Shown piece by piece: positions 1,062-48,212 of a DNA stretch of 64,000 nucleotides. The DNA is taken from the NCBI RefSeq assembly GCF_057098645.1, contig NZ_CM169472.1; one strand, written 5' to 3'. The notes beneath the pieces are model-generated. The model did no database searches and was not told where the DNA came from. It was given only the letters and a program-made list of their open reading frames with translations. Position 1 is the stretch's first letter. Each line of letters starts with the position of its first letter. Position numbers and translations under genes: made by a program.

Positions 1062-1073
1062 CACGCTACCGCC
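1062..1073 (-). promoter_or_regulatory. ops element (GGCGGTAGCGTG) in the wza leader, RfaH recruitment site within a JUMPstart region
   Basis: Minus-strand sequence reads GGCGGTAGCGTG about 180 nt upstream of the wza start; matches the ops consensus GGCGGTAGnnTG. Confidence 0.6.
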
Positions 1074-1541
1074 CCTGGCTTTTTAGCTACCAATACACTG
1101 ATTTAGCTTAATTTTTCAAACCCTCTCTGCATACAATCGTTGATGAGAAAGGGTTATTGCGGAAATTAACTTCCGAATATAAGGTGACATTATGGTAATT
1201 GAATATTGGCTCTCCAATAATGCAGGAGGAAGTGTTACAGCTAACGGAATAGCAGGCAAGGTAACAATTCGGCAATTGGCTATTTTTAAGAATTATATTA
1301 AGTGTCATTCAATATGGTTTTTAGGAGTTTCTTTAGGTTGACAATATTTAATATTGCGTCTCCACATGCGATATTTCTTAAATAATGTTTTATTATTACC
1401 ACTTTTAATTCAGGGATAATGTGAGGTTATTACCCTCAAATAATATGAGATAAATAGTGCTGCAACATTGCATTTTTGCCCCGATTTATCCATGATCGAA
1501 TTGTGACATTTGTCATACAACGAATAGGTTTTGTACTTACT

Positions 1542-16044: not shown

Positions 16045-16227
16045 AAGAAATCCTTTCTTAGAGAATTATTGAGGTCCGGTATCATACCGATTGCAATAAT
16101 GAAATAAGAGCAAACGAAGAAACTTTCAGAATTAGGCCCGGCGGCGCAGAAAATTTTGCTATTCGCCTCGCAAGAACGGAGAGCCGTCGATTGACACTAA
16201 GGGCGGAGTGACATAATTACAGGAGTG

Positions 16228-16375
16228 AGGGTTAGGGAGAAGTTTCCCCCTCCCCCTGGTGTTCTTAGTAAGCCTGGAAGCTAATCACTAAGAGTATCAC
16301 CAGTATGATGACGTGCTTCATCATAACCCTTTCCTTATTTAAAAGCCCTCTTCTCCGGGAGAGGGTTCCCCGTTT
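16228..16375 (+). ncRNA. sibA: Sib antitoxin sRNA, copy 1 (boundaries approximate)
   Basis: Starts just downstream of TTGACA...TAATTA; fully antisense to ibs ORF 1; ends at hairpin ccctcttctccgggagaggg plus T-run. Confidence 0.55.
16265..16324 (-). CDS. ibsA: Ibs-type hydrophobic toxin peptide, copy 1 (MMKHVIILVILLVISFQAY)
   Basis: 19-codon ORF with tandem ATG start and strongly hydrophobic sequence typical of Ibs toxins. Confidence 0.6.
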   Translation of the reverse strand: MMKHVIILVILLVISFQAY

Positions 16376-16556
16376 TAGCGTCCCGCTGAAATCGTCGGCT
16401 TACCTCCTTTCGCCCTGAATGCAGTCTATCGCTGACTTGCGGATAAAATAGTTTCAAGTGTGATTATTGCGTAACGACTCGCAAAGAATATTTGCTGGCA
16501 GGATCGCAGACTGCAAAGCCTGCAGATTGACAATCTTATCGTGAAGGCATACTTTC

Positions 16557-16703
16557 AGGAGTGAGGGTAGAGCGGGGTTTCCCCCGCCCTGGTAGTCTTA
16601 GTAAGCGGGGAAGCTTATGACTAAGAGCACCACGATGATGAGTAGCTTCATCATGACCCTTTCCTTATTTAAGGCCCCTTCCTCGGGAGGGGCTTTCCCG
16701 TTT
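16557..16703 (+). ncRNA. sibB: Sib antitoxin sRNA, copy 2 (boundaries approximate)
   Basis: Promoter TTGACA-N17-TACTTT; antisense to ibs ORF 2; terminator hairpin plus T-run. Confidence 0.55.
16598..16654 (-). CDS. ibsB: Ibs-type toxin peptide, copy 2 (MMKLLIIVVLLVISFPAY)
   Basis: 18-codon hydrophobic ORF antisense to Sib copy 2. Confidence 0.6.
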   Translation of the reverse strand: MMKLLIIVVLLVISFPAY

Positions 16704-16884
16704 CAGCGTCCCGCTGAAATCTTCGGCTTACCTCCTTTCGCCCTGTATGCAGTCTATCGCTGACTTGCGGATAAAATAGTTTCAAGTGTGATTATTGCGT
16801 AACGACTCGCAAAGAATATTTGCTGGCAGGATCGCAGACTGCAAAGCCTGCAGATTGACAATCTTATCGTGAAGGCATACTTTC

Positions 16885-17031
16885 AGGAGTGAGGGTAGAG
16901 CGGGGTTTCCCCCGCCCTGGTAGTCTTAGTATGCTGGGTAGCTAATCACTAAGAGCACCACGATGATGAGTATCTTCATCATGACCCTTTCCTTATTTAT
17001 GGCCCCTTCCTCGGGAGGGGCTTTCCCGTTT
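16885..17031 (+). ncRNA. Sib antitoxin sRNA, copy 3 (boundaries approximate)
   Basis: Third repeat of the promoter/sRNA/terminator block. Confidence 0.5.
16926..16982 (-). CDS. Ibs-type toxin peptide, copy 3 (MMKILIIVVLLVISYPAY)
   Basis: 18-codon hydrophobic ORF in the third repeat; two residue differences from copy 2. Confidence 0.55.
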   Translation of the reverse strand: MMKILIIVVLLVISYPAY

Positions 17032-28912: not shown

Positions 28913-30274
28913 ATGTTTAAACCGGAACTCCTTTCCCCGGCGGGAACGCTGAAAAATATGCGTTACGCTTTCGCTTATGGCGCAGATGCTGTTTATGCGG
29001 GCCAGCCGCGTTACTCCCTGCGTGTGCGCAACAACGAATTCAACCACGAAAATCTTCAGCTCGGCATCAATGAAGCCCACGCGCTGGGGAAAAAGTTTTA
29101 TGTCGTGGTCAACATTGCACCGCACAACGCCAAGCTGAAAACCTTTATCCGTGACCTGAAACCGGTGGTGGAAATGGGGCCGGATGCGCTGATTATGTCC
29201 GATCCAGGGCTGATTATGCTGGTGCGTGAGCACTTCCCTGAAATGCCGATCCACCTCTCGGTGCAGGCTAACGCCGTAAACTGGGCGACGGTGAAATTCT
29301 GGCAGCAAATGGGCCTGACCCGCGTGATCCTCTCTCGCGAGCTGTCGCTGGAAGAGATTGAAGAGATCCGCAATCAGGTGCCGGATATGGAGATCGAGAT
29401 CTTCGTTCACGGCGCACTGTGCATGGCCTACTCCGGTCGCTGCCTGCTCTCTGGCTATATCAACAAGCGCGATCCGAACCAGGGTACCTGCACCAACGCC
29501 TGCCGCTGGGAGTACAACGTCCAGGAAGGGAAAGAAGATGACGTTGGCAACATCGTACACAAGTACGAGCCGATTCCGGTGCAAAATGTTGAGCCGACGC
29601 TGGGTATCGGCGCGCCAACCGACAAAGTGTTTATGATCGAAGAAGCCCAGCGTCCGGGCGAGTATATGACCGCGTTTGAAGATGAGCACGGCACTTACAT
29701 CATGAACTCGAAAGATCTGCGCGCCATCGCCCATGTAGAACGCCTGACCAAAATGGGCGTGCATTCGCTGAAAATCGAAGGCCGTACTAAATCTTTCTAC
29801 TATTGCGCACGCACCGCACAGGTTTACCGTAAAGCTATCGATGACGCCGCTGCGGGCAAACCGTTCGATACCAGCCTGCTGGAAACTCTGGAAGGTCTGG
29901 CGCATCGTGGCTATACCGAAGGTTTCCTGCGTCGTCATACTCACGACGATTATCAGAACTACGAATACGGTTATTCAGTTTCTGACCGCCAGCAGTTTGT
30001 TGGTGAGTTTACCGGTGAGCGCAAGGGGGACCTCGCGGCGGTAGCGGTGAAAAATAAATTCTCCGTTGGCGACAGCCTTGAGCTGATGACGCCGCAAGGC
30101 AACATTAACTTTACCCTTGAGCACATGGAAAACGCCAAAGGTGAAGCGATGCCGGTCGCACCAGGCGATGGTTATACTGTGTGGCTCCCGGTCCCGCAGG
30201 ATCTTGAGCTCAATTACGCTCTGCTGATGCGTAATTTCTCCGGGGAAACCACGCGTAACCCACACGGTAAGTGA
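28913..30274 (+). CDS. trhP: U32-family peptidase-like enzyme (tRNA hydroxylation TrhP/YegQ)
   Basis: 453-aa ORF MFKPELLSPAGTLKNMRYAFAYGADAVYAGQPRY..., U32 family with conserved Cys cluster. Confidence 0.85.
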   Translation: MFKPELLSPAGTLKNMRYAFAYGADAVYAGQPRYSLRVRNNEFNHENLQLGINEAHALGKKFYVVVNIAPHNAKLKTFIRDLKPVVEMGPDALIMSDPGLIMLVREHFPEMPIHLSVQANAVNWATVKFWQQMGLTRVILSRELSLEEIEEIRNQVPDMEIEIFVHGALCMAYSGRCLLSGYINKRDPNQGTCTNACRWEYNVQEGKEDDVGNIVHKYEPIPVQNVEPTLGIGAPTDKVFMIEEAQRPGEYMTAFEDEHGTYIMNSKDLRAIAHVERLTKMGVHSLKIEGRTKSFYYCARTAQVYRKAIDDAAAGKPFDTSLLETLEGLAHRGYTEGFLRRHTHDDYQNYEYGYSVSDRQQFVGEFTGERKGDLAAVAVKNKFSVGDSLELMTPQGNINFTLEHMENAKGEAMPVAPGDGYTVWLPVPQDLELNYALLMRNFSGETTRNPHGK

Positions 30275-30358
30275 TTAATTTCGATTATTTTTCCCGGATG
30301 GAAAATTCTTAGAAACCGATCACATACAGCTGCATTTATTAAGGTTATCATCCGTTTC

Positions 30359-30445
30359 GCTGAAAAACATAACCCATAAAATGCTAGCTGTACCAGGAAC
30401 CACCTCCTTAGCCTGTGTAATCTCCCTTACACGGGCTTATTTTTT
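30359..30445 (+). ncRNA. cyaR: CyaR (RyeE) Hfq-dependent sRNA
   Basis: gctgaaaaacataacccataaaatgctagctgtaccaggaaccacctccttagcctgtgtaatctcccttacacgggcttattttttt: CCUCCU anti-SD seed, then terminator hairpin gcctgtgtaa/ttacacgggc plus U-tract; CRP half-site-like TCACA upstream. Confidence 0.75.
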
Positions 30446-30604
30446 TATGCATAAGCCCTATCTCTGGTAACCGTCTTCCATTGACCACATCGATAGAATC
30501 CTCCTTCATAGCACGATGCCTTTCACTTATCGGCATCGTGCTCCCACAGGTTCCGGCTACGCACAGCCAGAACGCGCATATTTGACGCTTACCAAAAAAT
30601 ATTC

Positions 30605-30922
30605 TCACTCTCCACATTTGAATGTCAGACGAGCGACACCATGTAATCCTACACCTTCTGTCTTCAGCTCAACTATTTGCATTTTTTTGCCCTGAGTAAC
30701 ACAGAAATGAGTTGCATCATTTTTTACTATATTTTCTGCACCAGATATTCTACCCCTGGCTAAAGAAGCTTCGGCTTCGGTGTAGTATTGGTTATCGAGT
30801 TTACGCTGAATATTACTTTTATATGCAAGACCAAATTTACCGATACTTGTCTCATCATTATGCACAGCACAACCAGACATAATAAAAATACTAATTAATG
30901 ATATAGCAGCTATCTTTTTCAT
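30605..30922 (-). CDS. yegR: Small lipoprotein of unknown function
   Basis: ORF 30605..30982; likely start MKKIAAISLISIFIMSGC (30922), 105 aa; signal peptide plus lipobox Cys; AT-rich codon usage. Confidence 0.7.
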   Translation of the reverse strand: MKKIAAISLISIFIMSGCAVHNDETSIGKFGLAYKSNIQRKLDNQYYTEAEASLARGRISGAENIVKNDATHFCVTQGKKMQIVELKTEGVGLHGVARLTFKCGE

Positions 30923-47994: not shown

Positions 47995-48118
47995 TGCTCC
48001 TGCCATAACGTGAAGAAGCAATGACCTGGTGGTCCGTGACTTCCCTACGCTGGCATTATCCAGATCAGGTGATACGGGTATTTCTCAGCCTTCACGCAGA
48101 AGGGCACCCCGAGTCGTT
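47995..48118 (-). promoter_or_regulatory. TPP (THI-box) riboswitch in the thiM 5' leader
   Basis: Minus-strand leader reads ...ggggtgcccttctgcgtgaaggctgagaaatacccgtatcacctgatctggataatgccagcgtagggaa..., the conserved THI-element core (CUGAGA, ACCUGAUCUGGAUAAUGCCAGCG). Confidence 0.8.
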
Positions 48119-48212
48119 TGGTTGCGATGATAAATCGCAGAGGAGGATGGTAATGTCCAGCGCACGCGTTGTAAACGAGGAAAAACGGCAGTTTTACAAT
48201 CGCGTTAATAAA

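What the first reader, a model, noticed from the sequence alone, without database searches (positions are those of the whole stretch)
30359..30445. CyaR sRNA immediately downstream of trhP (yegQ)
The sequence contains the C-rich seed AACCACCUCCUUAGCC, which could pair with Shine-Dalgarno regions of target mRNAs, then a strong terminator hairpin with a U-tract. A CRP half-site-like TCACA lies just upstream. This matches the known CRP-activated sRNA CyaR by position and sequence.
Basis: partly seen in the sequence, partly recalled or inferred. Interest (0 to 1): 0.3.

Follow-up and report, generated by a model that had tools for sequence, protein, structure and literature searches.

The report
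CyaR small RNA gene, E. coli

Summary
Confirmed and already known. Window 30359-30445 (+) is the cyaR (ryeE) gene. Rfam CyaR_RyeE (RF00112) matches 30357-30442 at 100.7 bits against a gathering score of 47 (E 6e-19). All 87 nt are identical to the annotated cyaR b4438 of E. coli K-12 MG1655. It lies 84 nt downstream of yegQ/trhP on the same strand.

Comparison with 52 other Enterobacterales species adds support. GATCACA is invariant, it always lies 21 nt upstream of a TAnnAT -10 hexamer (class II CRP geometry), 9 of 11 terminator pairs covary, and yegQ is upstream wherever enough DNA is held.

The last 27 nt of the gene (30419-30445) are identical to the attP core of phage P2. This strain has that integration site empty, whereas K-12 carries the ogrK-yegZ prophage remnant there. 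This too is documented.

Transcription, CRP dependence and Hfq binding cannot be tested here and rest on the literature. Interest is low.

The parts
28913..30274 (+). yegQ / trhP coding sequence (453 aa), the conserved upstream neighbour of cyaR
   Evidence: ORF list. Annotated yegQ in ATCC 8739 and trhP in K-12. tblastn finds it directly upstream of the sRNA in 49 of 52 other species loci.
30309..30324 (+). CRP-like site TTAGAAACCGATCACA: a perfect right half-site TCACA and a weak left half-site TTAGA. Its centre is 32 bp upstream of the centre of the -10 hexamer, which is class II geometry.
   Evidence: Pattern match with 2 mismatches. GATCACA is invariant in 53/53 species and TTAGA is present in 45/53. 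CRP dependence of cyaR is taken from the literature (PMC5861431; bioRxiv 10.1101/2024.10.08.617194).
30346..30351 (+). -10 hexamer TATCAT of the cyaR promoter
   Evidence: TAnnAT occupies this alignment column in 52 of 53 species (the exception is TATAGT), always 21 nt after GATCACA. It ends 8 nt before the annotated 5' end at 30359. The simple sigma-70 scan did not call it because there is no -35 match, as expected for an activator-dependent promoter.
30359..30445 (+). cyaR (ryeE) small RNA gene, 87 nt
   Evidence: Rfam RF00112 at 100.7 bits against a gathering score of 47. 87/87 identical to K-12 b4438. Promoter plus gene are present in 5423 of 5426 complete E. coli genomes.
30395..30408 (+). 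Seed hairpin AGGA-ACCACC-UCCU (RNA nt 37-50), carrying the C-rich anti-Shine-Dalgarno-like element. CACCUCCUUA (RNA nt 43-52) equals the 3' end of 16S rRNA.
   Evidence: MFE and centroid structures and the Rfam consensus structure. There is a 9-nt perfect complement to ompX -9..-1 (GAGGUGGUU), with a duplex energy of -16.2 kcal/mol, and a 10-nt identity with the 16S 3' tail (the 16S tail sequence is from my own knowledge).
30410..30445 (+). Rho-independent terminator: an 11-bp stem (30410-30420 / 30427-30437), loop UCUCCC, then UAUUUUUU
   Evidence: Terminator scan and fold. 9 of 11 pairs show compensatory changes and 99.3% of cells are paired across 53 species.
30419..30445 (+). Unoccupied attachment site for phage P2: 27 nt identical to the P2 attP core
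   Evidence: blastn against phages gives 27/27 to P2 AF063097 24356-24382, annotated 'attP' / 'Int attP core'. K-12 diverges from the window immediately after 30445 and carries the ogrK-yegZ remnant 'PR-X'. PMC3032704 Table 2 lists 'cyaR RNA' as a P2 insertion site that is empty in strain Crooks (ATCC 8739).

Best explanation
Window 30359-30445 (+) is the cyaR gene of an E. coli strain.

Shown here:
- It meets the CyaR_RyeE covariance model.
- It is identical to the K-12 gene.
- It sits in the conserved position after yegQ/trhP.
- It has a phylogenetically conserved promoter, made of a CRP-type site 32 bp upstream of a -10 hexamer.
- It ends in a covarying intrinsic terminator.

Inferred from published work on the identical RNA: cAMP-CRP bound at the class II site activates transcription when preferred carbon sources are exhausted. 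The ~87-nt RNA binds Hfq. Its C-rich hairpin loop, which mimics the anti-Shine-Dalgarno end of 16S rRNA, pairs with the ribosome-binding sites of mRNAs such as ompX, yqaE, nadE, luxS, yobF and hdeD. This blocks translation initiation and promotes RNase E-dependent decay.

In addition, the last 27 nt of the gene double as the chromosomal attachment core for phage P2. Because the phage carries the same 27 nt, integration regenerates the 3' end of cyaR. In this strain the site is empty.
For: - Rfam RF00112 matches at 100.7 bits against a gathering score of 47, E 6.2e-19, over the full model.
- The 87 nt are 87/87 identical to annotated cyaR b4438.
- The flanking genes are yegQ and yegR, as in E. 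coli ATCC 8739.
- The fold has a seed hairpin plus a terminator, z = -3.0, and the terminator scan is positive.
- In the 53-species alignment, GATCACA is invariant, its spacing to the -10 hexamer is fixed at 21 nt, and the -10 is TAnnAT in 52 of 53 (TATAGT in one).
- The terminator stem has 9/11 pairs with compensatory changes and a covariation score of 0.372 against 0.158 in shuffles, 0/500.
- yegQ synteny holds in 49/52 loci.
- There is a 9-bp perfect complement to the ompX Shine-Dalgarno/start region.
- Literature: CRP control, targets and the seed hairpin are described in PMC5861431. Seed conservation and CRP and Hfq dependence in Yersinia are described in bioRxiv 10.1101/2024.10.08.617194.
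- P2 attP core identity is 27/27, and cyaR is listed as a P2 insertion site in PMC3032704.
Against: Nothing contradicts it. The limits are these:
- No expression data exist for this strain.
- The left half of the CRP site (TTAGA) matches the consensus TGTGA at only 3 of 5 positions.
- The 16-mer pattern is not enriched in the window.
- With the annotated 5' end at 30359, the site centre computes to -42.5 rather than the textbook -41.5.
- The 9-bp ompX complement alone is only modestly unusual: 30 of 1000 shuffles reach 9 bp.
- Invariance of the seed, and largely of the loop, in my alignment is partly by construction, because of the search pattern and the filter.
Confidence: 0.97

Rival explanations
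1. The hairpin and T-run are simply the intrinsic terminator, or a 3'-UTR, of yegQ/trhP, with no independently transcribed RNA.
For: The element lies 84 nt downstream of the yegQ stop on the same strand. No other terminator-like site lies between them, so it probably also stops yegQ read-through.
Against: A conserved -10 hexamer and an invariant GATCACA at fixed spacing lie between the yegQ stop and the RNA, while surrounding intergenic sequence diverges. The 5' part and the seed hairpin match a curated sRNA model. The identical sequence is annotated as an ncRNA with a defined 5' end in K-12, and published work shows CRP-dependent expression.
Confidence: 0.02
2. The conservation reflects only its role as a phage P2 attachment site, not an RNA function.
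For: 30419-30445 is 27/27 identical to the P2 attP core. P2-type prophages or remnants occupy this site in many strains.
Against: The att core covers only the 3' 27 nt. The seed hairpin, the 5' region and the promoter lie outside it and are conserved in genera from Yersinia to Proteus. The stem half inside the core covaries with the half outside it, which is an RNA-structure constraint. The two roles are compatible rather than alternatives.
Confidence: 0.01

Closest known systems
CyaR (RyeE) of Escherichia coli K-12, gene b4438; Rfam family RF00112 CyaR_RyeE
   Same: The sequence is identical over all 87 nt. It has the same upstream neighbour (trhP/yegQ) at the same 84-nt distance, the same promoter sequence, the same seed hairpin and the same terminator.
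   Different: Nothing differs within the gene. Downstream, K-12 has the cryptic P2 remnant (ogrK, yegZ; 'PR-X') inserted at the 3' end of cyaR, whereas this window goes straight on to yegR.
Phage P2 chromosomal attachment site at cyaR, which I take to be the classical preferred site 'locI' (from my own knowledge, not verified here)
   Same: There is a 27-nt perfect identity with the annotated P2 attP core. P2-type prophages are integrated exactly here in other E. coli strains.
   Different: The site is unoccupied in this strain. The host flank at 30459-30493 additionally resembles the P2 IHF/P-arm stretch, which a plain attB need not do.
Other Hfq-dependent, CRP-controlled or anti-SD-like enterobacterial sRNAs (e.g. 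Spot 42; RprA on hdeD)
   Same: They share the general mechanism: a trans-acting sRNA with a short seed that pairs at ribosome-binding sites, plus a Rho-independent terminator with a U-tail.
   Different: They are different families with different sequences. No Rfam family other than CyaR_RyeE matches this stretch meaningfully. Spot 42 is repressed by CRP, whereas CyaR is activated by it (from my own knowledge).

Membership tests
CyaR_RyeE (Rfam RF00112) | Covariance-model score at or above the curated gathering score | tested here: met
   100.7 bits against 47, model positions 1-85 of 85, E 6.2e-19 in the 64-kb search.
CyaR_RyeE (Rfam RF00112) | Sequence correspondence to the type gene cyaR b4438 of E. 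coli K-12 | tested here: met
   87/87 identical, and identical through the upstream intergenic region back into yegQ.
CyaR_RyeE (Rfam RF00112) | Conserved genomic position: directly downstream of yegQ/trhP on the same strand | tested here: met
   yegQ ends at 30274 and cyaR starts at 30359. The same arrangement holds in 49 of 52 other species loci; the other 3 hold less than 250 nt of upstream DNA.
CyaR_RyeE (Rfam RF00112) | C-rich anti-SD-like seed presented in a short hairpin | tested here: met
   AGGA-ACCACC-UCCU at 30395-30408 appears in both the MFE and centroid folds and matches the capitalised Rfam consensus. It has a 9-bp perfect complement to the ompX SD region.
CyaR_RyeE (Rfam RF00112) | Rho-independent terminator supported by covariation | tested here: met
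   11-bp stem plus T-run. 9/11 pairs have compensatory changes, 99.3% of cells are paired, and slid controls reach at most 57%.
CyaR_RyeE (Rfam RF00112) | cAMP-CRP-activated promoter | tested here: inconclusive
   The sequence side is met: a CRP-type site with an invariant GATCACA at class II spacing from a conserved -10. Actual CRP binding and activation cannot be tested here. They are reported for the identical E. coli gene and for Yersinia.
CyaR_RyeE (Rfam RF00112) | An expressed ~87-nt, Hfq-binding transcript that represses ompX and other targets | not testable with these tools
   This rests on published experiments with the identical sequence (PMC5861431).
Phage P2 attB | Identity with the 27-nt attP core at which Int recombines | tested here: met
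   Window 30419-30445 equals P2 24356-24382, 27/27, annotated attP core.
Phage P2 attB | Prophages actually found integrated at this point | tested here: met
   K-12 has ogrK-yegZ starting inside the cyaR 3' end. The record for phage vB_EcoM-720R8 runs int - core - yegR - yegS. See also Table 2 of PMC3032704.

The most novel reading that the evidence does not exclude
The terminator loop AAUCUCCCUU is unchanged in all 53 species, while nine of the eleven stem pairs around it covary. Terminator loops are normally free to drift. The loop might therefore be a second functional site, either a second C-rich seed that pairs with GGGAG-type Shine-Dalgarno sequences or a protein contact. P2-type phages would then have chosen exactly this immutable stretch as their attachment core. 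A related reading is that the P-arm-like stretch at 30459-30493 marks an ancient P2-like insertion that has become fixed host sequence.
Probability: 0.15. Interest if true: 0.3.

Novelty: already known. Interest (0 to 1): 0.05.

Why it matters
It matters little as a discovery. CyaR is a textbook enterobacterial sRNA that links carbon-source status (cAMP-CRP) to outer-membrane protein, NAD and quorum-sensing functions. The value here is as a positive control: the first-stage reader identified a known sRNA correctly, to the base, from raw sequence. There is a small practical point. Under this 146-nt stretch, the eight PGAP-annotated RefSeq E. coli records shown carry no feature at all, while the curated K-12 record annotates cyaR. 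Automated annotation therefore appears to leave this gene unmarked. The overlap of an sRNA 3' end with a phage attachment core is a neat, already documented example of phages targeting conserved RNA genes.

Tried and rejected
- The bare CRP motif search (TGTGA-N6-TCACA, up to 2 mismatches) found 18 matches against 25 expected, so the motif alone proves nothing. I relied on phylogenetic footprinting instead.
- The sigma-70 scan found no promoter on the + strand upstream of cyaR. I do not count this as evidence against a promoter, because activator-dependent class II promoters lack a -35 match.
- RNAduplex of full-length CyaR against the ompX leader gave a long, loop-ridden duplex no better than shuffles (201/1000), so I discarded it. 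The seed-only analysis was used instead.
- Attempts to read De Lay & Gottesman 2009 (doi 10.1128/JB.01157-08, PMC2620814) failed because the paper is not held. Its specific statements on the promoter are therefore not cited.
- About half of the 120 genome-contig hits to the 15-mer seed were chance matches in unrelated phyla, with no hairpin or T-run, and were dropped. One Enterobacterales hit (Budvicia, L106) also lacked the hairpin and was dropped.
- A weak below-threshold Rfam match (ST7-AS2_1, 16 bits against a gathering score of 80) is noise.
- The minus-strand ORF 30408-30617 (69 aa), which overlaps the terminator, and the 'hypothetical protein' annotated over the core in a phage record were considered. 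I judged them spurious, but did not test this further.

Full report
**Observation**

I read window 30100-30700 directly. The string AACCACCTCCTTAGCC lies at 30398-30413. The hairpin AGCCTGTGTAATCTCCCTTACACGGGCT lies at 30410-30437 and is followed by TATTTTTTTA. It is the only terminator-like site in the 600-nt region. TCACA lies at 30320-30324. The 453-aa ORF at 28913-30274 is annotated yegQ in an identical E. coli genome (ATCC 8739) and trhP in K-12.

**Identity**

Rfam 15 cmscan over the whole window finds CyaR_RyeE (RF00112) at 30357-30442 on the + strand. The score is 100.7 bits against a gathering score of 47, E 6.2e-19, covering model positions 1-85 of 85. The alignment shows the seed hairpin and terminator in register.

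A 1.2-kb stretch around the site matches 5423 of 5426 complete E. coli genomes, so the window is E. coli. In the curated K-12 MG1655 record, cyaR (b4438) is annotated at 2167114-2167200, 84 nt after trhP. Alignment shows that window 30359-30445 is identical to it at all 87 positions, as is the whole intergenic region back into yegQ. The promoter-plus-gene stretch 30300-30445 is present in 5423 of 5426 genomes, at 99% identity or more in 5375 of the 5425 matching records.

**Structure**

As RNA, the 87 nt fold at -19.8 kcal/mol with z = -3.0 against dinucleotide shuffles. The fold has a 4-bp hairpin, AGGA/UCCU, presenting ACCACC (nt 37-50, window 30395-30408), and an 11-bp terminator stem (nt 52-79) followed by UAUUUUUU.

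**Comparative evidence**

After removing chance hits that lack a hairpin, 52 distinct orthologues remained. They come from Escherichia, Citrobacter, Enterobacter, Yersinia, Photorhabdus, Xenorhabdus, Proteus, Providencia, Morganella, Edwardsiella, Hafnia, Serratia, Pectobacterium, Dickeya and others. They were aligned with the window as alignment A2.

- Across the 15 pairs of the two hairpins, 99.5% of cells pair.
- In the terminator stem, 9 of 11 pairs show changes on both sides.
- The covariation score is 0.372 against 0.158 in shuffles (0 of 500 reach it), and slid controls collapse to 57% paired or less.
- The four pairs of the seed hairpin never vary, but that is by construction of the search pattern.

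Upstream, where nothing was imposed by the search:

- GATCACA is invariant in 53 of 53 sequences.
- The left half-site reads TTAGA in 45 of 53.
- A TAnnAT hexamer follows in 52 of 53 sequences (TATAGT in the other), and the spacer between GATCACA and that hexamer is 21 nt in all 53. Sequence in between and further upstream diverges freely.

The centre of TTAGAAACCGATCACA (between 30316 and 30317) lies 32 bp from the centre of the -10 hexamer (30346-30351). This is the geometry of a class II CRP-dependent promoter. With the annotated 5' end at 30359, the arithmetic gives -42.5.

As a bare motif the site is unremarkable: 18 matches in the window against 25 expected. The support comes from the footprint, not the motif. 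yegQ lies directly upstream on the same strand in 49 of 52 loci, and the other three hold less than 250 nt of upstream DNA.

**Mechanism**

Shown here:
- Family membership.
- The promoter architecture.
- The seed hairpin.
- The terminator.
- A 9-bp perfect complement between CyaR nt 40-48 (AACCACCUC) and ompX -9..-1 (GAGGUGGUU). The seed-only duplex is -16.2 kcal/mol, and 30 of 1000 shuffles reach 9 bp.
- CACCUCCUUA (nt 43-52) equals the 3' tail of 16S rRNA, so the seed reads Shine-Dalgarno sequences as the ribosome does (the 16S tail sequence is from my own knowledge).

Taken from the literature:
- CyaR is activated by cAMP-CRP and subject to catabolite repression.
- It is also influenced by CpxR.
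- It represses ompX, yqaE, nadE, luxS, yobF and hdeD by binding the ribosome-binding site, with Hfq- and RNase E-dependent decay.
- Its seed sits in a short stem-loop at about nt 36 (PMC5861431).
- In Yersinia the seed and a terminator-loop sequence are conserved, and the RNA is CRP- and Hfq-dependent (bioRxiv 10.1101/2024.10.08.617194).

Expression in this particular strain is inferred, not shown.

blastn against the phage collection shows that window 30419-30445, the last 27 nt of cyaR, is 27/27 identical to phage P2. That stretch runs from the terminator loop through the 3' stem to the T-run. In the P2 record the matching stretch is annotated 'attP' and 'Int attP core'.

K-12 and the window are identical up to 30445 and diverge immediately after. 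K-12 continues with P2 sequence (IHF site, P arm, ogr terminator, ogrK, yegZ), annotated 'cryptic prophage PR-X' from inside the cyaR 3' end. A phage record, vB_EcoM-720R8, runs int - core - yegR - yegS and so shows a prophage at this junction. Table 2 of the E. coli W genome paper lists 'cyaR RNA' as a P2 insertion site, empty in strain Crooks (ATCC 8739), with which the window is identical here (PMC3032704). So this strain carries the unoccupied site. This is documented biology, not a new finding.

**Rivals**

A pure yegQ terminator or 3'-UTR reading is contradicted by the conserved promoter elements between the yegQ stop and the RNA. A pure att-site reading fails because conservation and covariation extend well outside the 27-nt core. 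Neither excludes a dual role.

**Verdict**

Interest is 0.05.

**Caveats**

- Seed invariance, and largely loop invariance, are imposed by my selection.
- The primary paper on the E. coli promoter could not be read.

Noticed in passing
window 30459-30493: The host flank just after the P2 core resembles the P2 IHF-site/Int P-arm stretch (P2 locus L003 1556-1590), including a 15-nt exact run, CATTGACCACATCGA. The local alignment score is 38 against 13.8 +/- 2.1 in 2000 shuffles, with none reaching it. It may be a relic of an older P2-like insertion that is now part of the 'empty' site.
   Followed up: partly
window 16191-16339, 16527-16669, 16855-16997 (+): There are three tandem SIB RNA (Sib antitoxin / Ibs toxin) modules, each above 140 bits in Rfam. 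K-12 has only two, sibA/ibsA and sibB/ibsB, between yegL and mdtA, which I take to be the corresponding interval. This is a copy-number difference between strains.
   Followed up: partly
window 30420-30429 (CyaR terminator loop and closing pairs): AAUCUCCCUU is unchanged in all 53 species while 9 of 11 stem pairs covary, and it is capitalised in the Rfam consensus. That is unusual for a terminator loop. It coincides with the 5' part of the P2 att core. Caveat: my loci were filtered on TCTCCC, although only one Enterobacterales hit was lost that way.
   Followed up: partly
window 30300-30445: The eight PGAP-annotated RefSeq E. coli records shown list no feature under cyaR and its promoter. The curated K-12 record does annotate the ncRNA.
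   Followed up: no
window 48025-48121 (-): TPP riboswitch (RF00059, 71.2 bits against a gathering score of 54.3).
   Followed up: no
window 1062-1100 (-) and 40100-40170 (-): A JUMPstart element (RF01707, 57.3 bits) and an naRNA4 match (RF02564, 64.5 bits against a gathering score of 59.5).
   Followed up: no
L014 (Escherichia albertii NBRC 107761) around 4957: The sequence after the cyaR T-run reads ACGCGTAAT as in K-12, so E. albertii also seems to carry P2-type DNA at this site.
   Followed up: no
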